In this document: positions 1 to 21,315 of the stretch, piece by piece
Numbering within the stretch: position 1 is the first letter of the stretch
Layout: each line of letters starts with the position of its first letter
Assembly (NCBI RefSeq): GCF_000016745.1
Contig: NC_009483.1
Location: 1,080,001 to 1,112,000, forward strand
DNA: 32,000 bases
Source: Geotalea uraniireducens Rf4
GTDB taxonomy: Bacteria; Desulfobacterota; Desulfuromonadia; Geobacterales; Geobacteraceae
Direction: 5' to 3'
Position numbers and translations under genes: made by a program
The notes under the pieces: generated by a model
Databases searched by the model: none
What the model was told of the DNA's origin: nothing
What the model saw: the letters and a program-made list of their open reading frames with translations, nothing else

Positions 1-1282
1 CATCAAGATGCCCGGCTTGTCCGGCCTGGAGCTGTTGGATCGGGTGCGGGAGCTTAAGAGCGACCTCCTCGTGGTGATCATGACTGCCGAGGCGAGCATG
101 AAGAACGCCGTGGAAGCCATGAAACGGGGGGCCTACGATTACCTGACCAAACCGTTCGACCTGGATGTGATCGACGCCATTATCGAAAAGGTAAACAGGG
201 CGAGGGAGGTGACCTCCCAGGTGACCCTTCTCAAGGAAGAGCTGAAGGACCGCTACCAGCTGGAAAAGACCATTATCGGCAATTCTCCGGCCATGCGGGA
301 GATCTACAAGACCATCGGCAAGGTGGCCCCCAGCGACGTCACTGTCCTTGTTCAGGGGGAGTCGGGTACCGGCAAGGAGCTGATCGCCCGGGCCATCCAC
401 TTCAATTCGAAGCGGCTCGGAAAACCGTTCATCGCCCTTAACTGTGCGGCAATTCCCAAGGAGCTCCTGGAGAGCGAGCTGTTCGGTTTTGAAAAGGGGG
501 CGTTCACCGGCGCTACGGAGCGAAAGCTCGGCAAGTTCGAGCAGGCCAACGGCGGCACCATTTTCCTCGACGAGATCGGTGACATGCCCATCGACCTCCA
601 GGCGAAGATCCTCCGGGTCCTCCAGGAGAAAGAGGTGACGAGGACCGGCGGTAACCAGAGCATTAACGTTGATGTGCGCATTGTTGCTGCAACCAACCAG
701 GACCTGGAAGAGAGTGTGCGGCGCAAGGCGTTCCGCGAAGATCTCTATTATCGGCTCAATGTAATCCCGTTGCAACTGGTCCCGCTTCGGGAGCGGAACG
801 AAGATATTCCGCTTCTTGTGGAGTATTTCCTGGCGAAGATCTGTGCGGAGCTGGAGGTGCCGGTCAAGCGGTGCTCTTCCGACGCGCTCCGCCTCCTTAC
901 CGGCTACACCTGGCCGGGCAATGTCAGAGAACTGGAGAATACTCTCAAGCGGGCGGTCATCCTCTCGTCGGACCCGCTCCTGACCATTGCCGACTTTCCC
1001 GGACTGCGCGTCCAGAAGGGTGGCGAACTGGTTCAGAGCGAGGAGCTCTCTCTGGAAGGGATTGTCGACATCAAGCTGCGCGGATCATTCACCAACATGG
1101 AGAAGATGGAGAGCGGCGACGTCTACACCATGGTGTTGGAACAGGTGGAGCGGCCGCTGATCCGCTTCGTCCTGGAGAAGACCAGGGGGAACCAGGTGCG
1201 GGCAGCCGACATCCTCGGCATTAACCGGAACACCCTGCGGAAGAAGATAACCGAGCTGGGGATAGAGGTGAAGAGGGATTAG
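1..1282 (+). CDS. Sigma-54-dependent response regulator (NtrC/AtoC family), N-terminus cut off by window edge
   Basis: ORF 8..1282 stays open in frame back to base 2. The sequence ..[12 protein letters not shown] is the middle of a CheY-like receiver. AAA+ sigma-54 interaction domain has Walker A GESGTGKE and a canonical GAFTGA loop (EKGAFTGA). C-terminal Fis-type HTH is [21 protein letters not shown]. Stop TAG at 1280-1282. Confidence 0.9.
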
Positions 1283-1285
1283 AAG

Positions 1286-1488
1286 CTGGGAACTGGGAAC
1301 TGGGAACTGGGAACTGGGAACTGGGAACTGGGAACTGGGAACTGGGAACTGGGAACTGGGAACTGGGAACTGGGAACTGGGAACTGGGAACTGGGAACTG
1401 GGAACTGGGAACTGGGAACTGGGAACTGGGAACTGGGAACTGGGAACTGGGAACTGGGAACTGGGAACTGGGAACTGGGAACTGGGAA
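1286..1488. repeat. Perfect tandem heptanucleotide repeat (CTGGGAA) x 29
   Basis: Counted directly. First unit is 1286-1292 and last unit is 1482-1488, giving 203 nt = 29 x 7 with no variant position. It starts 3 nt after the regulator stop codon and ends 57 nt before the ATG at 1546. Confidence 0.97.
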
Positions 1489-1545
1489 ATTAGATTTTAC
1501 TGATCCCCGATCCCCGTTCCCTGATCCCAAATAAAGGGGGATACA

Positions 1546-2109
1546 ATGGGTGTGAAGGACAAGTTTTTTCTGGACAGGAACAACGCAGTACTGATGGTAA
1601 TCGATGTGCAGGAAAAACTGTGCAGGGCCATGGACGAGAAGGTACTGGCGAAGCTCACTGCCAACGTCTCCGTTCTCCAGGAAGCTGCGGTTGAGCTGGG
1701 AATTCCCGTCCTGGCCACCGAGCAGTATGTAAAGGGACTGGGTGAAACCCTGCCGGAGTTGAAGGGGAAGCTTTGCTCTCCGGCGCTGGAAAAAATGACC
1801 TTCAGCTGCTGCGGGGATGACAACTTTACCGCCGCTTTGAAGAAACTGGGGCGCAAGCAGATCATCATCACCGGTATGGAGACCCATGTCTGCATCTTGC
1901 AAACGGTTATCGAGCTGCTTGATGCGGATTATGTTGTTCATTTGGTGAACGATGCGGTGATGAGCCGTAAGAAGGAAAACTGGCAGGTAGGGGTGAATGC
2001 CGCTGCGGCGGCAGGGGCGGTGATAACCTCTACCGAGGCGGCATTGTTCCAGTTGCTCAAGGTCGCCGGTACCGACGAATTCAAGAAGCTGTCGAAACTG
2101 GTGCGGTGA
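1546..2109 (+). CDS. Isochorismatase-family (cysteine) hydrolase
   Basis: 187-aa ORF with SD AAGGGGGA 6 nt upstream of the ATG. It has the VIDVQ acid motif and the ITGMETHVCILQT cysteine motif typical of the isochorismatase/nicotinamidase fold. A hairpin terminator follows. Confidence 0.8.
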   Translation: MGVKDKFFLDRNNAVLMVIDVQEKLCRAMDEKVLAKLTANVSVLQEAAVELGIPVLATEQYVKGLGETLPELKGKLCSPALEKMTFSCCGDDNFTAALKKLGRKQIIITGMETHVCILQTVIELLDADYVVHLVNDAVMSRKKENWQVGVNAAAAAGAVITSTEAALFQLLKVAGTDEFKKLSKLVR

Positions 2110-3422: not shown

Positions 3423-3459
3423 AAAAAAGCCCGGGGATCTCTCCCCGGGCTTTTTGCTG
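3423..3459. terminator. Bidirectional rho-independent terminator, copy 2 of the identical module
   Basis: Same 37-nt string as at 2201-2237. It lies between the convergent LysR gene (+, ends 3391) and cytochrome paralog A (-, ends 3486). Confidence 0.85.
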
Positions 3460-4045
3460 CGCTGGCACTTCCTTTCGTTACTTTGCTACAGGGTTACGGT
3501 GATGTAGTTGTACTTGCTGTCCACCTGCACTCCGTTTTTGTAGACGAGCACCGTCAGCTTTTTCGTGCCGGTTGTGGCATAAATATGATTGGCAGTGGCC
3601 GAACTGCCGGCGGCGCCCACGTGCGGCAGGGTGGTCGAAGTCCCGTCGGCCCAGATGATCCGCAGGGAGTCGTGGTCCTTCAGGTTGCCGAAGGTGTAGG
3701 TGCTTGAAATCCCTCTTCTGGCAGTGGTCGGACCGATGGTCATCCCGACAACGGGCGGGTTAACCACGTTGAGTGTCCTGGATACTGTTGCCGTTTTCCC
3801 TTCCTCATCGGTCACCTTGAGGGTGACGGCGTAGGTGCCGAGGGTGGAGAAGGTCTTGCTGGCGGATGGTCCGCCGGCAGTGGTGCCGTCGGTAAAGGAG
3901 AGGCTGTAGGTAAAGAAGCCGTTGCTGTTGACCCCGGTATCGGCGGACAGGGTATAAGGGGTGTTGACCACCAGCTGATACCCAGCGGTATTGGGGTCGG
4001 CATCGGGGAAGCCGGCAGGAAACTGGGCGACGGGATCAACTCCGA
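3423..4045 (-). repeat. Duplicated 3' module, copy A (terminator + PKD-like C-terminal domains); partner at 7505..8128
   Basis: Aligned by eye at offset +4080, becoming +4083 after one 3-nt indel. The terminator is identical. The next ~300 nt differ at roughly one position in ten. Similarity decays by about 4045/8128. Confidence 0.85.
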
Positions 4046-6983
4046 AACCTGTTTTTGCCTGTTGTGCCGGGTCGGCAAAGCTGTTCAGATAGGCAACCCA
4101 TGCCTTCCGGTCACTGGTTGCCACGGCTGCGCCGGTCTGGTCTGTGGTTATTCCTTTGTACTGCTTGTCAATCCATAGAGATCCGGCCAGCCCGAGTGGT
4201 CCGGCATCGCTCTGAGGATGGATGCGGACGCTGTAGCCGTTGCGCCCTTCGATGAGGAGCCCGCTGCCGTTGGCCCTGATGCCGAATTCCGGCTGTCCTC
4301 CGCTGTAAGAGGTGCCGTCCCAGGTTCCGGTGAATGCAGCGCCGAGGTTAGTGAGGAGACCGGCCATATCGGTGACAAGGGCCGACACCTGTTTCGTTCG
4401 GGTTACGACCGTTACGCCGGAGTTGTTGGTGGCTTCAATCTTGAGCAGCCACCCCTGGCTGGTGGTAGTGGTGCTTGTTGCTGCCGGGAACGTGATGGCA
4501 GTCCCGCTGATACTGGTGTTAAAGGCAGTATTACGGGCCTTGAAGGCGTTTTCATACAGCCCTTCGCTGCGATCGATGTCGCGGATTGTGGTCGCGTTGG
4601 AGGCGAATTGAACTGCAAGCGAGCGAACACCGCTTCTTTCCTTGACTCCGGGATGGAAATCCGAGGGCTGGGTGGAGGCGTTGACCGAGGCGAACGGGGT
4701 AACCTGTGCGCCGCCGCCGGTCCAGGACATATTCAGGGTATCCCCTTTGACAACGAACTTGCCGTTATAGAAGCCGCCTGCAGTGGTGTCGCCGATGGTT
4801 CCCGCAGAACTGGCGCTGGTGGACCCTTTGTGGCAGTCGCCGCAGCCGCCTGATCCCCAGGCAGAGTCGGCTGGGGAGATGTCATGGTTCGTTTTGAACG
4901 TAACCCCCATGAAAGAGAGCTTGGTTACATGGGTCTTGGTATTATTGCCTGTGGAACCCGGTGTCGATTTAAGGCCAAGCTGGTATTCAAGATCACGGTC
5001 AATGGCGTTGATGTGGTCGCTGATATCTGCTGCAGTGACGGTACCAAGCTGGGTAAGCGCAACCAGTTGTTGACCGGGCCGTAATGAATAGGTATTAGCC
5101 TTGTTGATGTTTGCCACGTGGGTTTGCAGGAGGGAATCCATCCCACCGGCTCTGCCGTCGTTGTTGGCGTCAAAATTGACATCATTTTTGTCTCGCCAGA
5201 AGAGTGATGTGGAGAGATTGGCAGCCGTCAGTTTGTTTCCTTGCCAGGCCATGAAGTTATTATTGGTCATGTTCTGGCGGGTTACATTCTCGTTCTCATG
5301 ATCGGCAAGCCGTCCTTCGGCATCGTTGCCGGTGCCGTCAACCATGGCTCCGCCGGTGAAGTTCCCCAGTTTTCGTGAATGGCAGGCTTCACAGGCGATC
5401 AGGTCGAGATGGCCGACGTTGGCCGTGCCGTTCATGGTCCCCCCCTGCTGGACAATCTTTGCGGTCAGACCTTTCGCCTGATGTGCAGCCGTGGGATTCG
5501 GTGCACCGTGGGTCTCGTAGGAGATGACGCTCTGGGTTGCCGGATCGAAATCCCCACCATAGATATGACAGCCGCTGCAGTTCTTGGTGGTGTTGTCCGT
5601 TGCATTCCAGAGGGATTCGTAGGCGCCGTTACCCTTGGCTGGATCGCACTGGCCGAGTTTTTTCGAATCGTCGCCGGGGCTGGCCGAGCTGATGTTGTTA
5701 AAGCCGTAGGTACCCTTGAGGCCCGTGAAGCCGGAAGTCCCTACTTTGGAGAAATCAGCGTCCTTGCGTTTGTGGCATCCCATACAGCCCATGCTGTAAT
5801 GGACTTCGGCGGTACCGGACCAGGTGTCACCCCTCTTTTTCCAGTCAACGGCATGTTCAGCCATGTGGCAGCCGACGCAATTGTTGGAATCGGGAGTGGC
5901 CAGAATGTTGCCGGCGACCGTGCCGGCCAGCTTGAGGGCGGAGTTGTCCCCGGTCGGCACGACTTTCAACGGGTCGTAGGTAACATTGACGCCATCTGTC
6001 GGACTTGCAGCACCGAGCAGCGCGCCGGTTGTTCGTGAAGCATCGAATTTGCCGGTACGAACCGCTTTTTTGCGCTCTTCCCAGGAATAATCCTTCAGGT
6101 GGCACATCAGGCAATCCATTTCAAGGACGCCGGTCTGGCTGTAATCGTTCTGAACCGCCGCATAGCTGGCTGGGGTGCCGTCCGTATTGAAGCCGTCACC
6201 GCGGCTGCCGTAAACATCGATGAAGTAGTTGAAAGCGGTTACAGCACTCCCGAAGAAATAATCACGCAAAGAGGTCCGCACTTCCGGACTTTTGCCGGGA
6301 ACGTACTCATTGGCGCCGCCACCCACATGGCATTCAGCGCAATCCCGCATGGAGCCGGCCATGGAGTTGTCGACCCTGGCCTTGAACAGCTGTTGCGCAG
6401 TAAGGCCGGGAAGTAGGGCCGCACTGGTGGGAAATGAAGCATCACCGTATGTGGTGCCGTAATCATAGGGGCTGAACGTTGTAAAGGGGTTATTCTTGAA
6501 TTTTGCCGCAGTTCCATCGTAGGTCGTTCCTGCACCATCTTTGAATAATCTCGCCAACTGGCGAGCGGAGGGTGGTCACCACGCCCCCACATGGCCGGGG
6601 CCCTGGACCCAGTTTTTGCCCTGGGGACCAGCGCCACTGACGACGGGATCCCCGGAATCGGGGTTCCAGTTGTTCCACCCCCGTTGTTCGTTTGAGGCCA
6701 GTTGGGCGTGATAGCTGTGCCGCTCGATCTGGTCATAGCTTAGCAGAGCTTTGCCGGACGAGGGGGCAATGGTTGAACCATTATGGCAGGCGCCACAGGT
6801 GTTCTTCATGCTGAAAGCCTTGGTGCTGCCGGGGGTGATCGGGTTTCCGCCGGCCGGGCCTGCATCACGGAGCAGTATGTTGTCGTGGGCCGGATTGTAA
6901 GCCACTGCTGTTCCAGCAATTAGAAGAACTGCGCTGGAAATCAGGCCAAGCTTCAATCGGCCATAGGCTGATATTCTTGTCAT
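3486..6983 (-). CDS. Candidate selenocysteine-containing octaheme c-type cytochrome with C-terminal PKD-like domains (paralog A, 1165 aa if UGA 6578-6576 is decoded)
   Basis: ORFs 6576..6983 and 3486..6557 are in the same frame. They are separated only by one TGA plus 6 sense codons (135+1+6+1023 aa = 3498 nt including the stop). The upstream ORF has SD AGGAGG, a signal peptide (LISSAVLLIAGTAVA) and one CXXCH (CGACH). The downstream ORF has 7 CXXCH (CAECH, CLMCH, CVGCH, CMGCH, CSGCH, CEACH, CGDCH). Its nominal TTG start has no SD and no signal peptide. The C-terminus has a PKD-like pattern (TYSLSFTDGTT...TLKVTDEEGKTATVSR). Confidence 0.6.
6550..6578 (-). promoter_or_regulatory. In-frame UGA plus SECIS-like hairpin (paralog A)
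   Basis: Minus strand reads UGG-UGA-CCACCCUCCG-CUCGCC-AGUU-GGCGAG. There is a 6-bp stem and a 4-nt loop, and the stem starts 10 nt after the UGA. Geometry matches the paralog B site. The outer stem pair is C-G here and U-A in paralog B, a compensatory change. Confidence 0.55.
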
Positions 6984-7504
6984 GTCGGTGTCTCTCCTCC
7001 TGAATTGGATGCCACCATGGGAAAGCCTTGCTTGCTTCCGCTGGTGGAGGTTGTTGTCAATATCGCCTCTGATGCGGTGGGTTTATCTTTTCCTCGATCC
7101 TCCTTTGGAATTTTTTCTTCGCGAGGTTTTGCTGTCTGGGGGGACAGGCCGCCCGGAAGCATTCAGGACGAAACTTCAAAACCTCTTGCAAACGGGAAAA
7201 CGAAACGCTTGTTATTGCCAAGCACGAATTAATCCTGAACCTCGACTAATGTGTCGTATTGTTTTGCATACCGTCATGAATAAAACTTATAAATTTATGT
7301 TTACTGGATTTCCGGAGCAGCTTGAGGGGTAGACGAAGGGAAAAAACAATATTTTGCATCAAAGATAGGATAGTGTGGCTTTTTCATAACGGCATTGAAA
7401 TTGTGAACTGTGGGGGATATGACGCAGAAGGGTAAAGAGAGTCGTCGTGTTGGGGATTTTCCCCCATTGACTGCCATGATATCAAAGATGGGAATAGTAA
7501 AATT

Positions 7505-7539
7505 AAAAGCCCGGGGATCTCTCCCCGGGCTTTTTGCTG
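7505..7539 (-). terminator. Rho-independent terminator, copy 3 of the identical module
   Basis: Sequence AAAAGCCCGGGGATCTCTCCCCGGGCTTTTTGCTG lies 26 nt downstream of the paralog B stop (7566). It is identical to the copies at 2201 and 3423. Confidence 0.85.
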
Positions 7540-8128
7540 CGTTGACACTTCCTTTCGTTACTTTGCTACAGGGTTACGGTGACGTAGTTGTACTTGCTGT
7601 CCACCTGCACCCCGTTCTTGTAGACGAGCACTGTCAGTTTCTTCGTGCCGGTAGTGGCATAAATATGGCTGGTAGTGGCCGAACTGCCGGCGGCACCCAC
7701 GTGCGGCAGGGTGGTCGAAGTCCCGTCGGCCCAGATGATCCGCAGGGAGTCGTGGTCCTTCAGGTTGCCGAAGGTGTAGCTGGTGGAGATCCCTCTTTTG
7801 GCCGTGGTCGGACCGATGGTCATCCCCCCGACAACCGGCGGGTTGACCACGTTGATGGCCCTGGATACGGTTGCCGTCTTCCCTTCCTCATCGGTCACCT
7901 TGAGGGTGACTGATGAGGTGCCGATGGTGGAGAAGGTCTTGCTGACGGATGGCCCGCTGACAGTGGTGCCGTCGGTAAAGGAGAGGCTGTAGGTGAACGA
8001 GCCGTTTGTGTTGACGCTGGTATCCGCCGCCAGGGTGTAGGGTGTGTTGACTACCAGCTGGTAGCCGGAGGTGTTCGGGTCGGCGTCCGGGAAGCTGGCG
8101 GCGAACTGGGCGACCGGGTCTACGCCGA
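7505..8128 (-). repeat. Duplicated 3' module, copy B; partner at 3423..4045
   Basis: See the partner entry. The last ~190 aa of both paralogs are nearly the same (GVDPVAQF...NGVQVDSKYNY(I/V)TVTL). Confidence 0.85.
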
Positions 8129-11100
8129 TGCCGGCGGCAGCGGCGTTGTTGTCGATGCTGAGCAGATAGCTGATCCACTCGCTCCGCTTGTAGGAGCCTG
8201 CTGTTCCCGTACCCCCCGGAGCCGTGCCGTCAGCCCTGAAGTAACCGTCGGGATCAGGATAGAGAGCTTCCCCGCGGCTCAGATCTTTAGTCTGTGTGTA
8301 AACTACGCTATTCTCAACTACTTCTTCCTCGAAAGGAACACTCCTCGGCTGGCCGAGCTTGTTGAAGAGTTCGGTACCAGTGCGAAGATCACCCTTGTAG
8401 GCCTTGATGGTCGGAATGAATACGGCAGGTCTCTCCATCATGGTTGAGGCGCTCGCGGGAATAATGCCGGGGGCCGGTGTCCAGGTAGCATCGGCGGGTA
8501 TTGCGGTACCGGTCATGTTAAAGCCGCCGTCGAAGAAGTTTTTAGCCGTTGCGTGGCAGTCGTTGCAACCGAATGTTGTTACCTTGCCTGTCGCGTCGAA
8601 GGCACGCGGCTTACCCAGGACATACTGACTGATTGGTTTGACGCCGTGGGTCACCTGGTACAGGCCGCCGATATAGCCAAGCTCGGTGCCGTCCCAGGAT
8701 TTGCCGCTCTGTCCCGGCATGTCCTTGATCCGGGTTCTGTAATTTTTGTACTCCCTGATTTCGTCAGGGGTGGTGAAGATGGTATTGCCGCCGTAAACGC
8801 CAACGTATTTCCAGGCGCCGGTGAAGCTGCCATCCATGTTGTAGGCGCTCTGGTACCTACCTCCCTGTGCAGTTGATCCGGCAACACCGTCTCCGGGACC
8901 GCCGAACCCAACCGGGATCGGGGCGAAGCCGCCGGGGGCGAAGTTAATGCCCGCCTTGAGGTCGCGCTGAATCCACGGGTCAAAGATCGGTTCGCCAAAG
9001 CCCTGGGTCGAATTGAGATCACCGACTGCCAGAATCTGCCCATTGACACCATCACCGTTGGCGTCGACAGTTGTGCCGTAGTCGTTGTTGAAGAGCGCCG
9101 AGACGATAGTGTTGGTCAGGTAAATTTTACGCCTGAAGTTCGGGCTGGTCTTCAAGCCGTTGCCGACCTTCGACCAGGTTTTCAGCGGCAGCCATTCCTG
9201 GAGTGCACCGCCGATAAGCTGGGTGCCGTATGGAATTTCGGCCTGGTAGCCAGGGCCTGGTTGATTGGTTGCGGCACAGATGGTTCCGGGGCCCTGGCTG
9301 GCAGAGGTATAGCCGCAGTTCTGGTTGATGGTCTGGTTCATGAAGTTATATTGCTGTCTGGCACCTTCGTTGGCAGCGTCCGGCGCCGGGTCTTCGAACA
9401 TGCCCATCATACCCTTGCTGTAATCGAAGCCAACCATGGTCGGGTAACGGTTGCCGCTGGTGCAGTCAAGTGCGCGGACTGCCATGCTCTTTTTCTGCAC
9501 GTGACAGACGGTGCAGTCAATGACATCAAGATGGTTGCCGGGGATGAGTTTCTGGCCGCCGCTGCCATCCGGGCCCATGGCCCTGTTGATCATGGCGGTG
9601 AGGCCTGCTCTCTGATGTGCTGCTGTGGGGTCCGGGGCCCCCATGACATCTATCGGATTGCCGTCGGGGTTGCTGCCGGAGAGATGACAGCTTTCACAGC
9701 GTTTGACGGTATTGCGGCTGTCGACCTTGGTGCCGATCTGCGAGCCGTCTGCTATGGTGCCTGAGCCGTCGAAACCGCGGCCGGGATCACACTGATTCTT
9801 GTCGGGATTGGAACTGTTGGTGTCCATGTGACAGCCTGCGCAGCCAAGGCTGCCATGAATCTCCTGGCCATTCTGCCAGGCATCGCCACGCTTGAACCAG
9901 TCGGCACGAGGGAAGGGTACGGTGGATTTCTTCAGTACGTTCTGGTTCTGCTGTCCCGTGAAATCGGCGGTAAGGCCGATTTCCGTAACCGGTGCCTCAT
10001 AGTAGATCGGGCCGCTGGCACCTTTATTGTCACCACCGAAGGAGGTCATGCCGTTGACGGTCAGCCTGTTGTAGACGGTTGACCCCTGGGCGGCAAGGAT
10101 GCCGCGGACCATGTAACTGTAGAGGTTGGTCGCGTCGATCAATGGCGAATTGGGGGAGCCGGGGTATTTATCGGGAGATGGCATCCACGGCGCATTAAAA
10201 TCGTAGGCCGGCATTACCAGCCCGGTCGGGCCTACCATCGGATTGTTTACATTGGTGTTCAGGATCATCGGCGCCGAAGAGAGGAACCCGGTCATCATTT
10301 CCGGCAGATCCTTGAGAGTGTTCGGGCTATGACACTGCTGACAGTTGGCGCTGGGTGGCAGACGCTTGATGTTGTCAACCAGCGATTGCTTCAGACTGAC
10401 TGCCTGCATGCCGTTGGCATCTTTTGGCCCAAGTTCGATCATGGCGGCGTTGTAACCACCCTGGGTCGGGCTGCCGGGCATGAGGTCCATGAGGCCTGCT
10501 CCGGCCATTGGCGCTGCATTGAGAATGCCCATCTGCGCAAAAACTGAACTCATCAGGTTGTTGTAACCCTGGAAGTGGCAGAAAAGACAGTCCATCTCCC
10601 GTACGTTCGGCATCATCAGCTGCCCGTTCTGAATGTAAGGGGGCGTATTTGCCGTCCCATCCTGGTTCATGGCGACACTTCCCCAGCCGTTGGGAGCAAT
10701 CATCGCGTTACCGCCGCCAAGGGCCGGCGCCTTCCTGTCGGTTGTGCCGGGATAGCTCCAGGGTGCACGGATCACATTGCTTAGCGGGCTGCCTGTTTTT
10801 GCGTCCCATGCTTCGGCAACGGTGTTCATATAAGGGGTAATCGTTTGGTCGGACAACGCCCGTTGAGAAAGCCTGAAGCCGTTGCGGTCCTTTTCCACCA
10901 GGGCGCCGCCTACGTGGCAGCTGCCGCAGTTGGTCGCCATGTCCCATACGGAAAGGTCGACCTTGGTATACTTGCTGCCTGCTACATCACCAAAAAGAAA
11001 TTTATCTGTAGTTGGATAGGTTAAATCGGAACCACCTGGTTGTTTCATTAAATTCGCCACCTGGCGAAGAGAGGGGCTTCACCACTTGCCCCACATGGCT

Positions 11101-11543
11101 TTGGTCTGGGTCCAGGGTTTCTGGCGGTTGACTGTGGTGTCAAAGCCGCCGGTGGGCGAATCGTTCCATTCATTGGCTCCGAGAGCCGAATGGAAGGCGT
11201 GGTCGGCCAGCGCATCGTAACTTTTCAGTGCTTTACCAGTGGATGGTGCGATTGTCGAGCCGTTGTGGCAGGAACCGCAGGTTGCCTTGGGGCTGTAAGG
11301 GAAGCCCTCCATCGGGTTTTGCGGATTGCCTCCGACCATTACCGGCATCGGTCCCATGGGGACCTTGTTGCCGCTTGCATCGACAGTGTAAGGTACACCA
11401 TACTGGATGGCTACCTCGTCGTAGGTCTTGAGCTCGATCGGCGGATGGGCTGCGAAGCTTGTGCCCAACGACAGCCCGAAACCGGTCAAGAGCGCACCGA
11501 CCGTGGCCATCATCGGCAACGAGTCTTTAAAACGCTTGTTCAT
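7566..11543 (-). CDS. Candidate selenocysteine-containing octaheme c-type cytochrome with C-terminal PKD-like domains (paralog B, 1325 aa if UGA 11081-11079 is decoded)
   Basis: ORFs 11079..11543 and 7566..11060 are in the same frame. They are separated by one TGA plus 6 sense codons (154+1+6+1164 aa = 3978 nt including the stop). The upstream ORF has SD AAGGA, a signal peptide (MMATVGALLTGFGLSLGTSFA) and CGSCH. The downstream ORF has 7 CXXCH (CGSCH, CLFCH, CQQCH, CAGCH, CESCH, CTVCH, CNDCH). Its nominal GTG start has no SD and no signal peptide. Confidence 0.6.
11053..11081 (-). promoter_or_regulatory. In-frame UGA plus SECIS-like hairpin (paralog B)
   Basis: Minus strand reads UGG-UGA-AGCCCCUCUC-UUCGCC-AGGU-GGCGAA. 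There is a 6-bp stem and a 4-nt loop containing GG. The loop begins 17 nt after the UGA. Confidence 0.55.
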
Positions 11544-11904: not shown

Positions 11905-13044
11905 TTATTTGCCGGCAGCTACGGCCTGGAGAGGTGCGTTGTTACCGAGTGGCGGGGTTGTGTTGTTCTGCTGAGCGGAGACCTTTTGGTGGCCGAAGCC
12001 GTAAACGCTTATCTTTCTTGGTCCTGCCTGGTTGGTGACGAATATCAGTTGCTCCACCTCAAAGGCGGGGTCGGCAAACCGTCGAAAGTATTCAAGGTTG
12101 TCGCGGCTGATGGCTATATCGGCGGGGAGATTCAAGGTTCCCGCCTTTGATCCCCGTTCGCCGAAGAACATGAGCAGTTGGGCATCCTGATTGAAAATCT
12201 GGACAACCTGATGGCCGGCGTCGACCACGTAGATCAATCCATCATCGTCCACCGCAATCCCTTTGGGTCTGGCAAACTGTCCCGGCCGGTCCCCCGTCTC
12301 ACCAAAGGCCTTCATCACCTTGCCCGTCCGGTCCATCTTGATTATCCGGTTGTGTCCCAGGTTGGTTACGTAGACGAAACCGTTTTTGTCCAGGGCAAGG
12401 TTGGTCGGCAGGGACAATGTTTCATCCGGTTTGCCCTCCCTGCCGATGCTCCTGATCAGGTTTCCGCTCTTCCTGTCCAGTACCTTCACTTCACTGCTGC
12501 TGTAATCGACGACGAATATTTCGTCGCCATAGATTGCCACATCCGTTGGTTTCGTGATCTCCCTGGCAAGGGTTCTTTGCAAATCCCCTTCCGGCGTGAA
12601 CTGCAAGACCGCTTTCTTGCCGGTATCAGCCACATAGATGTTCCCCTCCTGGTCAAGTGCTATGTTGATCGGTGTTTGCATGGCATCCTGCCTGAACAGG
12701 GCATATGTTTTCTGTTCAAAGTCAATGGCGGACAGCTGCGCAAAAGGGGTATCGGAAACGTATATTTTGCTCCCCCTGACGGCGATGCCGTAAGGTTTTG
12801 AGAGCGTTTCCCCCGGTTCGGCTGTATTCGGGAGAAATGGCAGCAGCGCAGGTTTTACATCAGCGGCGCTGGATATGCTGGTAAGGTACTGTAAGTGGGG
12901 CGGGTTCGGGGCTGGGGGGAAATAAACCGTTTCCTTTGCGGGTTTGTTCAGGGCACAGCCGGTGAGCCAGAAGGGGAGCAGCAATAAGAGAAGAAAAGGC
13001 TTGAAGGTTGGTTTTCCGACGGCGTTAGGGCGATGGGGGTGCAT
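11905..13044 (-). CDS. NHL-repeat (beta-propeller) lipoprotein
   Basis: I place the start at ATG 13044, which has SD GGAGA 8 nt upstream. The 13125 start has no SD. Lipobox is LLLLLLPFWLTGC. Repeated NHL-type blades include GNIYVADTGKKAVLQF, DEIFVVDYSSSEVKVLD, GFVYVTNLGHNRIIKMD and GLIYVVDAGHQVVQIF. Confidence 0.8.
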   Translation of the reverse strand: MHPHRPNAVGKPTFKPFLLLLLLPFWLTGCALNKPAKETVYFPPAPNPPHLQYLTSISSAADVKPALLPFLPNTAEPGETLSKPYGIAVRGSKIYVSDTPFAQLSAIDFEQKTYALFRQDAMQTPINIALDQEGNIYVADTGKKAVLQFTPEGDLQRTLAREITKPTDVAIYGDEIFVVDYSSSEVKVLDRKSGNLIRSIGREGKPDETLSLPTNLALDKNGFVYVTNLGHNRIIKMDRTGKVMKAFGETGDRPGQFARPKGIAVDDDGLIYVVDAGHQVVQIFNQDAQLLMFFGERGSKAGTLNLPADIAISRDNLEYFRRFADPAFEVEQLIFVTNQAGPRKISVYGFGHQKVSAQQNNTTPPLGNNAPLQAVAAGK

Positions 13045-13119
13045 GGTTATTAATCTCCGAATAAAGTTTCCTGCTCCGATTCTCCGGCGAACCTGTGTCG
13101 TTATTAGAGCCTTCAGGGG

Positions 13120-13152
13120 GGCCAATGGGCAGGCTGCGCCTGCCCATTGGCC
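13120..13152 (-). other. Intercistronic 14-bp perfect stem-loop between the tetraheme cytochrome and the NHL gene
   Basis: Sequence is GGCCAATGGGCAGG-CTGCG-CCTGCCCATTGGCC. No U-tract follows on the minus strand. It is therefore more likely an mRNA-stabilising, processing or attenuating hairpin than a full terminator. Confidence 0.5.
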
Positions 13153-13174
13153 GGTGAAAGCAAGAAGCCGGCTG

Positions 13175-13966
13175 CTATTTGTCGTGGCAGGTCAGGCAAA
13201 GTTTCGAGCCGTCCAATTTTACGCGCAAGAGTGGGGCCGCGGCGGTTGCGTTTGCGGTATTATGGACATCGTGGCAGGAGGCGCAGGTCAACTTGTCACC
13301 CTTGTACAAGAGCTCGCTGATGGTTGTGCACTTCCTGTCACCGGCCGGAATCCAGGAGATGTTGGCGTTGGGCTGGTGGATATACGGATCCAGGGCAGCT
13401 ACCTTCCCGTAACTGAAACCGATCGGATGGTCGTCCATCAGGTTTCCGCCGTTGGCACCCCCGAAGGCGCCATCAGGGGCAAGCACTACATGGTTAGAGG
13501 TGGGGGTGAACGACCCCATCTTGCCGCTGTAAGAATCTATGGCGGTAGTACCGTCGTGGCAACTCATGCAGAGCCGGGATGGTCCGTCCATCATATCCGC
13601 CGGATCGATCACCGCCTGTAGGCTCGCGGACTTATCCAGGTAGTCGGGCTCTGTCATGTAGTCGCCTTCCTCTATGCCGACATAGGGGAGGAAGTTCTGC
13701 GTGGTCTGCGTGTGGTTCCATAAGGGGCTGTAAGAAGCCTGGCCGGTGCTGAGAGTGTTGTGTGGCGTGTGGCAGAATTTGCATACTTGCTGCTGGTTGT
13801 CACCGTTGTTGGCTCCGCCGGTTGCCAGGGGGAGGTAGAGGTTCATGTTATGGGGCGAACTGATAACCCCGCTCCCGGGTGAGTATGAGACAAGGCCGGC
13901 GAAAGCCAAGCTTGCACTTCCCGCCAGCACGGTAACAAAAATGCCGGCAATAAAATTGAGTTTCAT
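13175..13966 (-). CDS. Tetraheme c-type cytochrome (periplasmic/secreted)
   Basis: 263-aa ORF with SD GAGGA and signal peptide MKLNFIAGIFVTVLAGSASLAFA. Four CXXCH motifs are present (CKFCH, CMSCH, CASCH, CLTCH). A CxxCHTPH...PLWN-type signature is also present. Confidence 0.85.
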   Translation of the reverse strand: MKLNFIAGIFVTVLAGSASLAFAGLVSYSPGSGVISSPHNMNLYLPLATGGANNGDNQQQVCKFCHTPHNTLSTGQASYSPLWNHTQTTQNFLPYVGIEEGDYMTEPDYLDKSASLQAVIDPADMMDGPSRLCMSCHDGTTAIDSYSGKMGSFTPTSNHVVLAPDGAFGGANGGNLMDDHPIGFSYGKVAALDPYIHQPNANISWIPAGDRKCTTISELLYKGDKLTCASCHDVHNTANATAAAPLLRVKLDGSKLCLTCHDK

Positions 13967-14152: not shown

Positions 14153-14168
14153 AGCAATGTTGATGCCA
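14153..14168 (-). promoter_or_regulatory. Sigma-54 (-24/-12) promoter of the cytochrome operon
   Basis: Minus strand is TGGCAT-CAACA-TTGCT, against the consensus TGGCAC-N5-TTGCW, with exact GG/GC spacing. It lies ~185 nt upstream of the ATG at 13966, immediately downstream of a sigma-54 activator gene. Confidence 0.65.
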
Positions 14169-14385: not shown

Positions 14386-15888
14386 TCAGCTCACCAGATG
14401 CGGGAATAACCGTTGAGAAACGGCAGAATCCTCCCCCGTTTTCATGTCGCACCATTCGTCCTTTTGGGATGATTCCGACATGCCGAATTTTTTCATGCGG
14501 TAGCGGAGGGTGTCCCGGCTCATTTTCAGATATTTGGCTGCTTTTGTTTGGTTGCCGCCGGAGATCTCAAGCCCCATCCGGATAAGTTGACGCTCCAGTT
14601 CTTCCAGGGATATGCCGCCGGTCGGGATGGTAATATGCCCCCTGGCAAACGAATGCTGGGCAGAAGCATGTGAATCGACATGCAGGCTTTTGTTTTGTGC
14701 TGTTTCGTATTGCTGCTTTATTTCCGCGTTCAGAAAAACGGGAGTCAATATTCTGCTATGTTCGAGCATCATGGTTCGTTCTATGGCGTTACGCAGTTCC
14801 CGTACATTCCCCGGCCAGCCATAGCCGGTGAGATAAGCCATGGTTTCCGGCGACACCCCTTCCACCCTGCGCCCGTATTCTTCATTCAGCCGTTCGATGA
14901 AATACTGGACGAGGCTGGGGATATCATCCGTTCTCTCCCTCAGCGGCGGCAAGGGAATGTTCATGACGTTCAAGCGGTAAAAAAGGTCGCCTCTGAAGCG
15001 GCGTTCTTTAACCATTGCAGGTAGATCCTGATGGGTGGCGGCGATGATCCTCACATCAGCCTGGATGTCTTCTTCCGCACCGAGACGGCGGAACCGTTTC
15101 GTCTCAATCACCTTGAGCACCTTTGCCTGCATGGAAAAGGGCATATCGCCGATTTCGTCGAGAAAAACCGTTCCACCTTCTGCCAGTTCGAAGATCCCCT
15201 TGCGCCTCTTGCTTGCATCCGTGTACGCCCCCTTTTCATGGCCGAAAAGTTCGCTTTCCAGAAGGGTTTCCGGTATGGCGGCACAGTTGACCTCTGCAAA
15301 CGGTGCCTCGGCCCTTGCACTGTGATTGTGGATGGCCCTGGCCACAAGTTCCTTGCCGGTTCCGCTTTCACCCAGGATCAGAACAGTTTTGGCATCGGTA
15401 TCCGCACAGACCTTGATCATCTTGAAAAGGTTGACCATGCTTGCGCTGTTTCCCACGAGTTTGTCATGTTCGGTTTTCTTGCGGAGTTCCTTGCGGAAAA
15501 AATCCAGTTTTTCCCTGAGTTGCCTCTTTTCAAAAGCCTTGTCGATAACGTGGCGTAACGCTTCCATATTGAATGGCTTGCCGATATAGTCTTCCGCACC
15601 TAGCTTCAAGGCTCTGACAGCGGAATCGACATCGGCATTGGCAGTGATCATTATTACGCTGAGCTCTTCATCTCTGAGTTTGAATTGCTGGAGCAGGTCC
15701 AGACCATCGGCATCGGGGAGCCGTATATCAAGTAGTGCCATATCAGGCTTGAACAGGGAGAGTTTATTGATTGCTTCCGACCCGCTGGCAGCGGTTTCGA
15801 CCGCATACCCGGCTTTTGAGAGCATGACGGATAGGGACCAGGAAATAAGCTTTTCATCATCGACGATTAATATCCTGTTATGCTCCAT
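14386..15888 (-). CDS. Sigma-54-dependent response regulator (NtrC family)
   Basis: I place the start at ATG 15888 (MEHNRILIVDDEK), which has SD GAGGA 9 nt upstream. The longer ORF runs to 16005. It has a CheY-like receiver, an AAA+ domain with GESGTGKE, a variant sigma-54 contact loop GAYTDA, and a C-terminal Fis-type HTH (GGNQTKAAKYLKMSRDTLRYRMKKFG). Confidence 0.88.
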   Translation of the reverse strand: MEHNRILIVDDEKLISWSLSVMLSKAGYAVETAASGSEAINKLSLFKPDMALLDIRLPDADGLDLLQQFKLRDEELSVIMITANADVDSAVRALKLGAEDYIGKPFNMEALRHVIDKAFEKRQLREKLDFFRKELRKKTEHDKLVGNSASMVNLFKMIKVCADTDAKTVLILGESGTGKELVARAIHNHSARAEAPFAEVNCAAIPETLLESELFGHEKGAYTDASKRRKGIFELAEGGTVFLDEIGDMPFSMQAKVLKVIETKRFRRLGAEEDIQADVRIIAATHQDLPAMVKERRFRGDLFYRLNVMNIPLPPLRERTDDIPSLVQYFIERLNEEYGRRVEGVSPETMAYLTGYGWPGNVRELRNAIERTMMLEHSRILTPVFLNAEIKQQYETAQNKSLHVDSHASAQHSFARGHITIPTGGISLEELERQLIRMGLEISGGNQTKAAKYLKMSRDTLRYRMKKFGMSESSQKDEWCDMKTGEDSAVSQRLFPHLVS

Positions 15889-16439
15889 GGTTGCTGTCCT
15901 CTGAGTATAAACGTTGCAGTCGTACGGCAAATCAGCGTCATTTTGGGGTCTTGGTTGATTAACCATGGAGCCGGCGATAGCTTTATGGGTGGACCGTTGC
16001 TTCATGGGGATATGTATTCTCTGCTTTGCACGGTTCAGCTAAGGCGGCAATCCATTCGAAATCTTTTTGGGAGGGTGGTTACTTTCGAGCACGGAAGCAC
16101 TGTTGTCCTGCTTAGCACAAACCGGTCCGTGTGACACAGATATGCAAAAAATATTTCTAATATCAATATAATAAATTATTACAATATTGCATTTATTGGG
16201 TTTATGGCTGGCCGTGAAAATAAAATTAGAAATAATTTTAAATCAAAGTACTGAGATATTGTGAAAATACGATGGTTGGCTAGCGTTAATTGAAAACCGT
16301 TTACGCAAAAACACGGGAACATGTTGTGTTTCCGCAAAATGCCGGGGAACCTGCCGTCTACTTGCCGATTGCGTTGCCGGGAAAGGGTTGGAGTTCAAGG
16401 AAGAGAAAGTTTGCCTGAAGGGGAGTCTTGCATGAATTC

Positions 16440-20991: not shown

Positions 20992-21315
20992 GGCGCAAAA
21001 TTACCATTTGCCGTATCGGCAGTCAATCTTCCCCGATTTAGAAAACAATAATTATTCTTGCGCTTGACCGGCGTGCGCTCTTTGTGCTATTTGAAAAAGA
21101 CTTTCAATTTTAAAACAACTGCGGGGGTGGACTGTAGTAGTAAGACTCAGGCTTGTTCGCGTAAAAGCAGTGGTTTATTTATTGAATGAAAGTGGATATC
21201 AAAATCATACGACGGGAAAGGAGGCGGGTAAGTCGGTGTCGCAATCGGATTGGAAACCAATAGTGTCACATCCGGAGTTTCCGGATGGCCACTAACTAAA
21301 AAGGAGAGAAGGGCA

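What the first reader, a model, noticed from the sequence alone, without database searches (positions are those of the whole stretch)
3486..6983. Paralog A: the same UGA-plus-hairpin architecture, with a compensatory base-pair change supporting a functional RNA structure
Seen in sequence:
- ORF 6576..6983 ends ...GPGHVGAW-TGA. Six in-frame codons (PPSARQ) follow, then the 1023-aa ORF at a TTG with no SD and no signal peptide.
- The fused length is exactly 1165 codons plus the stop, with heme motifs again split 1+7.
- The hairpin CUCGCC-AGUU-GGCGAG sits at the same distance from the UGA as in paralog B.
- The outermost pair is C-G here and U-A in paralog B. Both partners changed and pairing was kept. 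The loop and the flanking nucleotides differ.
- The residues flanking the UGA are conserved between paralogs: W-U-xPSxRQxAxL.

Two diverged paralogs keeping the frame, the stop codon identity (TGA both times), the hairpin position and the pairing is hard to explain by chance or by a recent nonsense mutation.
Basis: partly seen in the sequence, partly recalled or inferred. Interest (0 to 1): 0.85.

Follow-up and report, generated by a model that had tools for sequence, protein, structure and literature searches.

The report
Selenocysteine-containing octaheme cytochrome gene
The apparent stop codon that splits this large multi-heme cytochrome gene in two is almost certainly read as selenocysteine, guided by a small RNA hairpin just downstream, and the protein belongs to a widespread family that public databases annotate as two separate genes and that the selenoprotein catalogue I checked does not list.

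Summary
On the minus strand, ORF 6576-6983 ends in W-TGA. The frame continues without interruption into the 1023-aa ORF, giving 1165 codons with CxxCH motifs split 1+7. A 6-bp/4-nt hairpin starts 10 nt after the TGA, as in paralog B.

I fetched about 55 homologous loci from Geobacteraceae, Geomonas, Desulfuromonadales and Desulfobulbales.
- All 67 unique stop-type sites read TGA, never TAA or TAG.
- The non-stop relatives read Cys (3) or Asp (2).
- The small and large ORFs are always contiguous and in frame.
- The three codons after TGA show a coding signature.

The hairpin is kept beyond what the protein requires. Leu is TTG in 47/47 cases against 8.8% background, Ala is GCG in 58/61 against 13.6%, and Arg is AGA in 32/42 against 8.2%. 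Three stem pairs show double compensatory changes. All four published bacterial SECIS criteria are met.

This is a selenoprotein gene. It hits none of the three cytochrome-type selenoprotein families in a 2026 catalogue (ExtKL/MccSep, GSU2204, Otr), and RefSeq names its two halves separately. The heme core resembles only Shewanella octaheme tetrathionate reductase, and only at fold level. The function is inferred to be a selenium-dependent reductase and was not shown. The Sec machinery of the host was not tested.

The parts
3486..6983 (-). Paralog A, complete recoded gene: 1165 codons (Sec at residue 136) plus TAG stop
   Evidence: Translation in one frame with a single internal TGA. Homologs with Cys or Asp at that position are uninterrupted full-length proteins.
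6900..6983 (-). N-terminal Sec-type signal peptide (MTRISAYGRLKLGLISSAVLLIAGTAVA|Y). It is the only export signal for all eight heme-binding motifs.
   Evidence: Read from the translation (basic n-region, hydrophobic core, AVA cleavage motif). Inference only; no predictor was run.
6783..6797 (-). Heme-binding motif 1 (CGACH, residues 63-67), upstream of the Sec codon
   Evidence: C63, C66, H67 are invariant in A1.
6576..6578 (-). In-frame UGA read as selenocysteine (residue 136)
   Evidence: TGA in 67/67 unique stop-type homologous sites. TGT/TGC (Cys) in L017, L057 and L078, and GAT (Asp) in L045 and L079.
6566..6575 (-). 10-nt pyrimidine-rich spacer between UGA and hairpin; it is translated (Pro-Pro-Ser)
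   Evidence: Third-position entropy is 1.7-1.8 bits and positions 1-2 are about 0.1 bit in codons +2 and +3 (0.75 bit in codon +1) across the family, which is a coding signature continuing through the UGA.
6550..6565 (-). Bacterial SECIS upper stem-loop CUCGCC-AGUU-GGCGAG (6 bp, 4-nt loop with G at loop position 2). It overlaps codons Ala-Arg-Gln-Leu-Ala-Arg.
   Evidence: MFE -10.8 kcal/mol, z -3.6. 91.8% of cells paired in 65 sequences, with double changes at three pairs. Codon bias tests.
4830..6341 (-). Region holding heme-binding motifs 2-8 (residues 215-718), the catalytic or electron-transfer core
   Evidence: All seven CxxCH motifs are invariant in 55-63 homologs. AF2 model pLDDT 86, and the only PDB fold match is 1sp3.
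3771..3974 (-). PKD (Ig-like) domain, residues 1004-1071, followed by a further beta-sandwich region
   Evidence: Pfam PF18911 at 3.8e-9 and PF00801 at 2.6e-7. Foldseek hits to FN3/Ig domains.
3423..3455 (-). Intrinsic terminator of paralog A (GCCCGGGGA-GAGA-TCCCCGGGC + T6)
   Evidence: Read. The same element after paralog B was found by the scan.
7566..11543 (-). Paralog B, complete recoded gene (1325 codons + TAG). UGA at 11079-11081, hairpin UUCGCC-AGGU-GGCGAA at 11053-11068.
11905..13966 (-). Upstream genes on the same strand: a 263-aa multiheme cytochrome (13175-13966) and an NHL beta-propeller (11905-13125). They sit beside the Sec-cytochromes in at least 13 other loci.
   Evidence: Pfam; tblastn synteny.

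Best explanation
Window 3486-6983(-) is one gene for an exported octaheme c-type cytochrome of about 1165 aa. Its codon 136 (UGA) is decoded as selenocysteine.

Mechanism. The bacterial Sec pathway is established; its use here is inferred. The ribosome reaches the UGA. The 16-nt hairpin, which begins 10 nt downstream and presents an AGUU loop, recruits SelB-GTP-Sec-tRNA(Sec). Sec is inserted and translation continues through PPSARQ into the part that databases call a separate 1023-aa ORF.

The single N-terminal signal peptide then exports the whole chain, so that all eight CxxCH motifs can receive heme in the periplasm. Paralog B works the same way.

The Sec lies in the most conserved segment of the N-terminal domain (PGHxGxW-U-PPSxRQxA). 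The protein has about 15 kDa per heme, a ratio that a review associates with catalytic cytochromes. Its heme core resembles only octaheme tetrathionate reductase. I therefore infer a selenium-dependent reductase with Sec at or near an active-site heme, probably acting on a sulfur, selenium or similar chalcogen or oxyanion substrate. That functional step is not shown.
For: Shown here:
1. One frame with a single TGA.
2. TGA is invariant in 67 unique homologous sites from several orders, never TAA or TAG. TGA is an ordinary stop for 8 of 17 other genes in this window.
3. Cys codons occupy the aligned position in L017, L078 (P0006) and L057, the classic Sec/Cys signature. L057 and L059 are a close Cys/Sec pair.
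4. The coding signature is continuous across the UGA. Codons +1 to +3 are Pro/Pro/Ser, with all four third bases in use.
5. No SD-like motif occurs in 0/65 sequences. A start-capable codon 8 is missing in 7/65.
6. The small and large ORFs are always adjacent and in frame. In a 1.84-billion-protein search, 22 of 26 small-ORF relatives are 110-167-aa fragments, nearly all matched to the query's last residue. Only P0006 and P0008 are full-length relatives across the site.
7. Hairpin: six pairs are 91.8% paired. Pair 15-28 is UA 46 / GC 10 / CG 4, pair 14-29 is CG 37 / UA 10, and pair 18-25 is CG 53 / UG 5 / AU 4. Covariation exceeds 500/500 shuffles and all slid controls.
8. Synonymous-site tests: Leu TTG 47/47 (background 8.8%), Ala GCG 58/61 (13.6%), Arg AGA 32/42 (8.2%), Ala GCC 0/42 (44.6%). 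GCT..AGR versus GCG..CGN gives Fisher p = 0.006.
9. Four of five non-Sec homologs have lost the special codons or pairs.
10. All four bSECIS criteria quoted in PMC13188914 are met. The loop is 4 nt, the stem 6 bp, G is at loop position 2 and is followed by U or G in 64/65, the spacing is 16 nt, and the MFE is -10.8 and -8.6 kcal/mol.

From established knowledge:
- Covalent heme attachment to CxxCH occurs only after export. A large ORF without a signal peptide could not mature on its own.
- Geobacter (now Geotalea) uraniumreducens has SelD and other selenoproteins (PMC1794560). The nearest named relative of the window is Geotalea toluenoxydans (L002, same gene order).

For the functional inference:
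- Foldseek gives a single hit, 1sp3, at E 7.7e-6.
- Cytochromes above 7 kDa per heme are described as catalytic (PMC7096707).
- MccSep sets a precedent for Sec catalysis at a heme (PMC13510729).
Against: - No selA/selB/selC/selD or tRNA-Sec is in the window or in the fetched loci, so the host's Sec machinery is not shown here.
- There is no Rfam hit, which is uninformative either way.
- RNAalifold on all 65 sequences returns only 2 pairs. It returns the 5-bp helix (-8.46 kcal/mol) only after the 3 re-registered sequences are removed.
- The core CGCC/GGCG follows partly from Arg-Gln-x-Ala codons. One Asp homolog (L045) and one Cys homolog (L057) still carry a 5-bp hairpin.
- The codon counts are not phylogenetically independent, so the binomial P values overstate significance.
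- Asp at the Sec position in two clusters is unusual for a redox-active Sec/Cys site.
- The AF2 model is unreliable around the site (pLDDT <50 for P0007 residues 106-129). No Sec-heme geometry is available, and the catalytic role is pure inference.
- The Otr match is weak (TM 0.27/0.38) and has no HMM support.
Confidence: 0.92

Rival explanations
1. These are two separate genes. A 135-aa monoheme cytochrome terminates at UGA, and the 1023-aa cytochrome is translated by re-initiation at the TTG (GTG in paralog B) seven codons downstream. The hairpin then regulates coupling or mRNA stability.
For: - Codon 8 is a start-capable TTG, GTG or ATG in 58/65 sequences.
- Gene callers and RefSeq annotate the region this way.
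Against: - No SD-like motif occurs in 0/65 sequences, and the candidate start sits inside the hairpin.
- 7/65 sequences have TTT, GCG or TGG at codon 8, and 2 have no start codon within 16 codons.
- Codons between the UGA and the TTG are under amino-acid-level purifying selection with free third positions.
- The large ORF has seven CxxCH motifs but no signal peptide.
- Cys and Asp homologs are single continuous proteins.
- The stop is always TGA.
Confidence: 0.03
2. The UGA is read through without selenium. A near-cognate or suppressor tRNA inserts Trp, Cys or Gly, and the downstream hairpin stimulates this.
For: The comparative data prove read-through and a functional hairpin. They do not identify the inserted amino acid.
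Against: - The hairpin fits the bacterial SECIS model on all four criteria.
- Cys is the recurrent replacement, as in known selenoproteins.
- The relatives are Desulfobacterota, known to be rich in selenoproteins (PMC13188914; PMC1794560).
- I know of no bacterial hairpin-directed UGA read-through system other than Sec (own knowledge).
Confidence: 0.04
3. This is a pseudogene, a recent nonsense mutation or a sequencing error, and the hairpin is a by-product of the RQLA codons.
For: The CGCC/GGCG core can arise from the common CGC and GCG codons. In 45-nt context the fold is not exceptional (z -1.3).
Against: - The same TGA occurs in 67 unique sequences across families and orders and in multiple paralogs per genome.
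- Both flanks are under purifying selection.
- GCG, TTG and AGA are rare codons in these genes, yet nearly fixed here.
Confidence: 0.01

Closest known systems
MccSep / ExtKL (GSU2937-2936) of Geobacter sulfurreducens, a pentaheme cytochrome c selenoprotein and polysulfide reductase (PMC13510729; NCBIfam NF040886)
   Same: - An exported multiheme c-type cytochrome of Desulfobacterota with one in-frame UGA-Sec.
- A stem-loop lies directly downstream of the UGA.
- It was historically annotated as two ORFs.
- Cys-type relatives exist, and Sec is followed by Pro (GUPTPNR versus WUPPSAR).
   Different: - MccSep has five hemes and is about 49 kDa, with Sec near the C-terminus after all heme motifs and no PKD domain.
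- This protein has eight hemes and is about 120 kDa, with Sec after heme motif 1 and PKD/Ig domains at the C-terminus.
- No sequence relationship was detected. NF040886 does not appear even at E<=10. phmmer and hmmsearch against PDB sequences give no cytochrome hit of this kind.
Octaheme tetrathionate reductase Otr of Shewanella oneidensis (PDB 1SP3; NCBIfam TIGR04315, listed as having GenBank-annotated Sec members in PMC13188914)
   Same: - Eight CxxCH motifs.
- It is the only solved structure that Foldseek matches to the heme core of paralog A (E 7.7e-6, probability 1.00).
- It is a catalytic, not purely electron-carrying, multiheme cytochrome.
   Different: - TM-score is only 0.27/0.38 with 12% identity.
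- TIGR04315 gives no hit at E<=10, and the profile search of PDB does not recover 1sp3.
- This protein is about 2.7 times longer, with large insertions, a Dx[DN]xDG-type loop and C-terminal PKD/Ig domains.
- The position of Sec in the Otr-family selenoproteins is unknown to me.
Bacterial SECIS consensus model (Zhang and Gladyshev model as summarised in PMC13188914; E. coli fdhF prototype)
   Same: - A stem-loop in the coding sequence immediately 3' of the UGA.
- A small apical loop with G followed by U or G.
- A 16-nt distance from the UGA to the loop.
- MFE below -7.5 kcal/mol.
   Different: - It is a very compact element of 16 nt.
- A lower helix is not supported (54.7% paired).
- It has no bulged U like that of the E. 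coli fdhF element (own knowledge).
- SelB binding was not tested.
MtrC/OmcA-type outer-surface multiheme cytochromes (Pfam PF22113)
   Same: Partial Pfam matches to the MtrC/MtrF domain II/IV model. It has Ig-like domains and a gene neighbourhood of other multiheme cytochromes and NHL propellers, as in extracellular electron-transfer clusters.
   Different: - The scores sit at or below the Pfam cut-off (26.9 and 30.7 against 30).
- No MtrC or OmcA structure appears among the Foldseek hits.
- It has eight hemes, not ten, and no lipoprotein signal.

Membership tests
Bacterial selenoprotein gene (UGA-Sec with SECIS) | In-frame UGA conserved among orthologs, with no other stop codon at the site | tested here: met
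   67/67 unique stop-type sites are TGA.
Bacterial selenoprotein gene (UGA-Sec with SECIS) | Homologs with Cys aligned to the UGA | tested here: met
   L017 TGT, L078/P0006 TGC, L057 TGT. In addition, two Asp forms (L045, L079).
Bacterial selenoprotein gene (UGA-Sec with SECIS) | Protein-level conservation on both sides of the UGA in the same frame | tested here: met
   Period-3 entropy pattern from -45 to +57 nt; alignment A1.
Bacterial selenoprotein gene (UGA-Sec with SECIS) | bSECIS: 3-9 nt apical loop, 4-16 bp upper stem, G in the first two loop positions, 16-37 nt from UGA to loop, MFE <= -7.5 kcal/mol (criteria from PMC13188914) | tested here: met
   Loop AGUU (4 nt), 6 bp, G at position 2, 16 nt spacing, MFE -10.8 (A) and -8.6 (B) kcal/mol.
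Bacterial selenoprotein gene (UGA-Sec with SECIS) | RNA structure conserved beyond the coding constraint | tested here: met
   Covariation counts; synonymous-codon skew and GCT..AGR / GCG..CGN coupling; relaxation in non-Sec homologs.
Bacterial selenoprotein gene (UGA-Sec with SECIS) | Host encodes selA, selB, selC (tRNA-Sec) and selD | not tested
   None in the window or in 59 loci. Literature only: Geobacter uraniumreducens has SelD and 7 other selenoproteins (PMC1794560).
Bacterial selenoprotein gene (UGA-Sec with SECIS) | Selenium actually incorporated into the protein | not testable with these tools
   Needs 75Se labelling or mass spectrometry.
MccSep / ExtKL (NF040886) | Match to the family model; five heme motifs with the Sec/Cys site C-terminal to them | tested here: not met
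   No NF040886 hit at E<=10. Eight motifs, with Sec after motif 1.
Tetrathionate reductase family octaheme cytochrome (TIGR04315) | Match to the family model above cut-off | tested here: not met
   No TIGR04315 hit at E<=10.
Tetrathionate reductase family octaheme cytochrome (TIGR04315) | Shared fold and heme arrangement with 1SP3 | tested here: inconclusive
   Foldseek E 7.7e-6 but TM 0.27/0.38 and rmsd 12 A. Hemes are not modelled.
GSU2204 family CXXCH-containing selenoprotein (NF041027) | Match to the family model | tested here: not met
   No hit at E<=10.
MtrC/OmcA-type outer-surface cytochromes (PF22113) | Domain II/IV model above the gathering score | tested here: inconclusive
   26.9 bits for A (below the 30 cut-off) and 30.7 for B. 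No structural match.

The most novel reading that the evidence does not exclude
This is a previously uncatalogued family of large octaheme selenoenzymes, only distantly Otr-like in fold. Selenocysteine would work together with a heme active site, making this a second, evolutionarily independent heme-selenium catalyst after MccSep. The family is amplified into tandem paralog arrays in metal- and sulfur-respiring Desulfobacterota and is embedded in NHL-propeller and cytochrome clusters of the extracellular electron-transfer type. If so, selenium availability would directly gate a widespread respiratory reductase of still unknown substrate.
Probability: 0.4. Interest if true: 0.75.

Novelty: new member of a known kind. 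Interest (0 to 1): 0.6.

Why it matters
**Annotation.** Dozens of genomes, including RefSeq Geomonas, Malonomonas and Geotalea, carry this gene split into a 'cytochrome C' of about 135 aa and a 'PKD domain-containing protein' of about 1000 aa. The larger part lacks its signal peptide, first heme and Sec. Cytochrome counts, heme counts and localisation predictions for these organisms are therefore wrong.

**Selenoproteome.** The family is absent from the 2026 table of more than 110 prokaryotic selenoprotein families. It adds one to five selenoprotein genes per genome in Geobacteraceae, Desulfuromonadales and Desulfobulbales.

**Biochemistry.** Only one multiheme selenoenzyme (MccSep, 2026) has been characterised. 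A second, unrelated and much larger one would let researchers test whether Sec-plus-heme catalysis is a general solution for chalcogen or oxyanion respiration. The natural Cys and Asp variants provide ready-made comparison points.

**Method.** The very compact SECIS is almost fully embedded in a conserved peptide motif. It is a clean example of dual coding and could seed a search model.

Tried and rejected
1. **Lower SECIS helix** (columns 6-12 with 39-45), suggested by several single-sequence folds. Only 54.7% of cells pair, so it is not supported.
2. **RNAalifold on the whole alignment.** It gave 2 pairs. The cause is three sequences (L040, L046, L051) whose hairpin is shifted by one register (CGGCA-GUU-UGCCG). 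Without them the helix is recovered.
3. **Sec136 paired with Cys446 (xCDPAKG).** I suspected this because both Asp-type proteins lack that Cys. Rejected: many Sec-type members also have GH-DPAKG.
4. **Structure of the Sec region.** The Asp-type P0007 model has pLDDT <50 around the site. Its Foldseek hits were dominated by the Ig/FN3 C-terminal domains.
5. **Sequence searches against the PDB.** The single-sequence search gave nothing. The profile search gave PKD domains plus two weak c-type cytochrome hits, neither of them 1sp3.
6. **Curated family models.** No NCBIfam family is reached, and Rfam finds nothing.
7. **Source genome and Sec machinery.** An exact look-up of the window's DnaB found no record. 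There is no tRNA-Sec in the window or in 59 loci.
8. **Sigma-54 promoter in front of paralog A.** No match within 2 mismatches in 6984-7565. Window-wide matches do not exceed chance.


Full report
**1. What is in the window**

The finding lies on the minus strand. ORF 6576-6983 (135 aa) ends ...GPGHVGAW followed by TGA at 6578-6576. The same frame continues CCA CCC TCC GCT CGC CAG (PPSARQ) into the TTG at 6557 that opens the 1023-aa ORF ending at 3486.

Translating 3486-6983(-) in one frame gives 1165 sense positions, one internal TGA and a terminal TAG. One CxxCH motif lies before the TGA and seven after it.

The hairpin CUCGCC-AGUU-GGCGAG occupies 6565-6550 and starts 10 nt after the TGA.

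Paralog B (7566-11543) is built the same way. It reads ...MWGKW-TGA-SPSLRQVANL, with the TGA at 11081-11079 and the hairpin UUCGCC-AGGU-GGCGAA at 11068-11053.

As isolated 20-mers the hairpins fold at -10.8 and -8.6 kcal/mol (z -3.6 and -3.1). In 45-nt context the z-scores are only -1.3 and -1.0. One sequence alone would therefore not be convincing.

**2. Comparative evidence that the UGA is read through**

A protein search with the fused sequence returned 116 relatives. Almost all begin right after the site (MARLF..., LARLF..., MYKDG..., MAHLF...), so gene callers cut them at a stop.

Only three relatives span the site. P0006 has Cys (GGW-C-PSSARQ). P0007 and P0008 (Malonomonas rubra) have Asp.

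A scan of one genome per species returned 77 loci, of which about 55 are true family members. They come from Geotalea toluenoxydans, eight or more Geomonas species, Malonomonas, Desulfuromonas, Desulfuromusa, Desulfocapsa, Desulfurivibrio, Desulfobulbaceae and many MAGs.

- At the aligned codon, every stop-type sequence reads TGA (67 unique sequences), never TAA or TAG.
- The exceptions are TGT (L017, L057), TGC (L078) and GAT (L045, L079).
- TGA is an ordinary terminator for 8 of 17 other genes in this window, so the code is not globally altered.
- The three codons after the TGA are Pro, Pro, Ser in 54-66 of 67 sequences. All four third bases are used (third-position entropy 1.7-1.8 bits). 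First and second positions are about 0.1 bit in the second and third of these codons and 0.75 bit in the first. The period-3 pattern runs unbroken from 45 nt upstream to 57 nt downstream.
- The small and large parts are adjacent and in frame in every locus.
- In an exhaustive search of 1.84 billion representative proteins, 22 of 26 relatives of the small ORF are 110-167-aa fragments, nearly all matched through to the query's last residue (the W before the stop). Only P0006 and P0008 are full-length relatives across the site. The remaining two are weak hits to much longer proteins.
- No sequence has a Shine-Dalgarno-like motif before codon 8. Seven of 65 have a non-start codon there.
- The large ORF carries seven heme-attachment motifs but no signal peptide. 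Covalent heme attachment happens after export (established knowledge), so the large ORF needs the signal peptide of the small ORF.

**3. Is the hairpin more than a by-product of the protein sequence?**

The 65 unique TGA+51-nt sequences align without gaps (A3). The six pairs 14-19/24-29 are formed in 91.8% of cells.

| Pair | Types observed |
|---|---|
| 15-28 | UA 46, GC 10, CG 4 |
| 14-29 | CG 37, UA 10 |
| 18-25 | CG 53, UG 5, AU 4 |

The covariation score (0.211 for the 8-pair version) exceeds all 500 shuffles and all slid registers.

Because the hairpin overlaps the conserved peptide A-R-Q-L-A-R, I compared codon choice with the usage of the same amino acids in the same genes, about 970 codons each.

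| Position | Observed | Background share of that codon |
|---|---|---|
| Leu, codon 8 | TTG 47/47 | 8.8% |
| Ala, codon 9 | GCG 58/61 | 13.6% |
| Arg, codon 10 | AGA 32/42 | 8.2% |
| Ala, codon 5 | GCC 0/42 | 44.6% |
| Arg, codon 6 | never AGR | about 22% |

- With the amino acids held constant (Ala...Arg), GCT goes with AGR (29), GCG goes with CGN (2), and there is one off-diagonal case (Fisher p = 0.006).
- Third-position entropy drops to 0-1.0 bit inside the hairpin, against 1.6-1.8 bits in the flanking codons.
- Three sequences (L040, L046, L051) have a re-registered hairpin, CGGCA-GUU-UGCCG, at the same place.

Non-Sec relatives relax these choices:
- L079 (Asp) reads CGG CAG ACA GCC CGG, and the canonical pairs are gone.
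- L078 (Cys) uses CGG at codon 10, which breaks pair 15-28.
- L045 (Asp) uses CTG.
- L017 (Cys) has TCA at codon 8.
- Only the distant L057 keeps the element.

Caveats:
- The counts are not phylogenetically independent.
- RNAalifold on all 65 sequences finds only two pairs. It finds the helix (-8.46 kcal/mol) once the three re-registered sequences are removed.
- A lower helix is not supported.

**4. Fit to the bacterial SECIS model**

A 2026 review quotes four criteria for the bacterial SECIS (PMC13188914):
- a 3-9 nt apical loop and a 4-16 bp upper stem;
- G in the first two loop positions, usually followed by G or U;
- 16-37 nt from the UGA to the loop;
- MFE at or below -7.5 kcal/mol.

Here the loop is AGUU (50 sequences), AGGU (10), AGUG (2), AGGC (2) or AGAU (1). 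The stem is 6 bp, the distance is 16 nt, and the MFE is -10.8 and -8.6 kcal/mol. All four criteria are met.

The Sec machinery itself was not found in the window or the loci. It is documented for Geobacter (Geotalea) uraniumreducens (PMC1794560). The window shares its gene order (NHL, paralog B, paralog A, LysR) and 68-88% protein identity with Geotalea toluenoxydans (L002).

**5. What the protein is**

- Pfam finds Cytochrome_C7, MtrC/MtrF II-IV (borderline) and PKD domains. No NCBIfam family is reached.
- The N-terminus reads as a Sec-type signal peptide (inference).
- An AF2 model of an Asp-type relative (pLDDT 84.5) is unreliable around the site. It matches only Ig/FN3 folds through its C-terminal domains.
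- A model of residues 137-802 of paralog A (pLDDT 86, pTM 0.88) matches a single PDB entry, 1sp3. This is the octaheme tetrathionate reductase of Shewanella oneidensis (E 7.7e-6, TM 0.27/0.38).
- At about 15 kDa per heme the protein falls in the 'peptide-replete' class, which a review describes as catalytic (PMC7096707).
- The genes upstream on the same strand are an NHL beta-propeller, a 263-aa multiheme cytochrome and a sigma-54 activator. The NHL and cytochrome pair recurs in at least 13 loci. NHL proteins accompany extracellular electron-transfer cytochrome clusters elsewhere.

I infer a selenium-dependent reductase with Sec at or near a catalytic heme. This step is not demonstrated.

**6. 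Comparison with what is known**

The mechanism, UGA-Sec with a SECIS in the coding sequence, is classical.

The 2026 catalogue of more than 110 prokaryotic selenoprotein families lists three cytochrome-related entries: ExtKL (NF040886), the GSU2204 family (NF041027) and the Otr family (TIGR04315). None of these models hits paralog A, P0008 or P0057, even at E<=10.

MccSep/ExtKL was predicted in 2007 (PMC1914089) and characterised in 2026 (PMC13510729). It is a five-heme, 49-kDa protein with Sec near its C-terminus. It works like this protein at the level of recoding but is not related in sequence or architecture.

RefSeq names the two halves separately: WP_246014712.1 is 'cytochrome C', and WP_136526253.1 is 'cytochrome c3 family/PKD domain-containing protein'. 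No full-length Sec-annotated record appeared among the 116 relatives.

Literature searches for selenocysteine together with multiheme or c-type cytochromes found only MccSep/ExtKL-related work.

I therefore rate this as a new member (a new family) of a known kind. Supplementary lists of large selenoproteome surveys could not be checked.

**7. Verdict**

- Confidence that the UGA encodes Sec directed by this hairpin is about 0.92.
- Confidence in a catalytic Sec-heme reductase role is about 0.4.
- Interest is 0.6. The recoding mechanism is ordinary. The family, however, is widespread, multi-copy, mis-annotated and absent from the 2026 selenoprotein table I checked, and it would be only the second kind of multiheme selenoenzyme.

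Noticed in passing
window 3425-4045 and 7505-8128 (- strand): The 3' ends of paralogs A and B are 89.5% identical over 621 nt, although the rest of the proteins is only about 30% identical. The block runs past both TAG stops and includes the same intrinsic terminator (GCCCGGGGA-GAGA-TCCCCGGGC + T-run). This looks like gene conversion or a partial duplication.
   Followed up: partly
window 14154-14168 (- strand): A sigma-54-type -24/-12 match, TGGCATCAACATTGC (1 mismatch), lies about 190 nt upstream of the 263-aa multiheme cytochrome gene and next to a sigma-54 activator gene (14386-16005). Window-wide, such matches do not exceed chance.
   Followed up: no
window 11905-13966 (- strand); L003, L004, L009, L012, L019, L022, L023, L027, L038, L048, L049, L050, L078: An NHL beta-propeller gene and a multiheme cytochrome gene of about 260 aa recur immediately upstream of the Sec-cytochrome genes. 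This suggests a conserved functional module.
   Followed up: partly
L020, L045, L054 (Malonomonas rubra NZ_FQZT01000002.1, about 236.9-258.8 kb): A tandem array of at least five paralogs lies in one genome. Four have TGA and one has GAT (Asp) at the site. The Asp copy uses CTG rather than TTG in the loop codon.
   Followed up: partly
L059:6181 and L057:6181: A distant branch (23-24% identity) carries the same site as F-[U/C]-[L/I]FSYRQLAKK with the hairpin UCGCC-AGUU-GGCGA. One MAG has TGA and the other TGT, an independent Sec/Cys pair.
   Followed up: no
L005:535, L010:536, L011:572, L019:10974, L022:13313: A third paralog type in Geomonas and Geobacteraceae reads HGHNGKW-U-[T/V]PSLRQVADLQ. 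Its hairpin is UCCGCC-AGGU-GGCGGA, so the outer pairs changed on both sides relative to types A and B.
   Followed up: partly
residue 446 of paralog A (window about 5646-5648, - strand); alignment A2: The family splits into an 'xCDPAKG' group and a 'GH-DPAKG' group at a nearly invariant DPxKG motif. The Cys does not track the Sec, Cys or Asp state of residue 136.
   Followed up: yes
window 21250-22575 (+) and 29043-31448 (-): Two long ORFs (441 and 801 aa) have no Pfam match at E<=1e-5. ORF 1279-1941 (-) is also unmatched.
   Followed up: no
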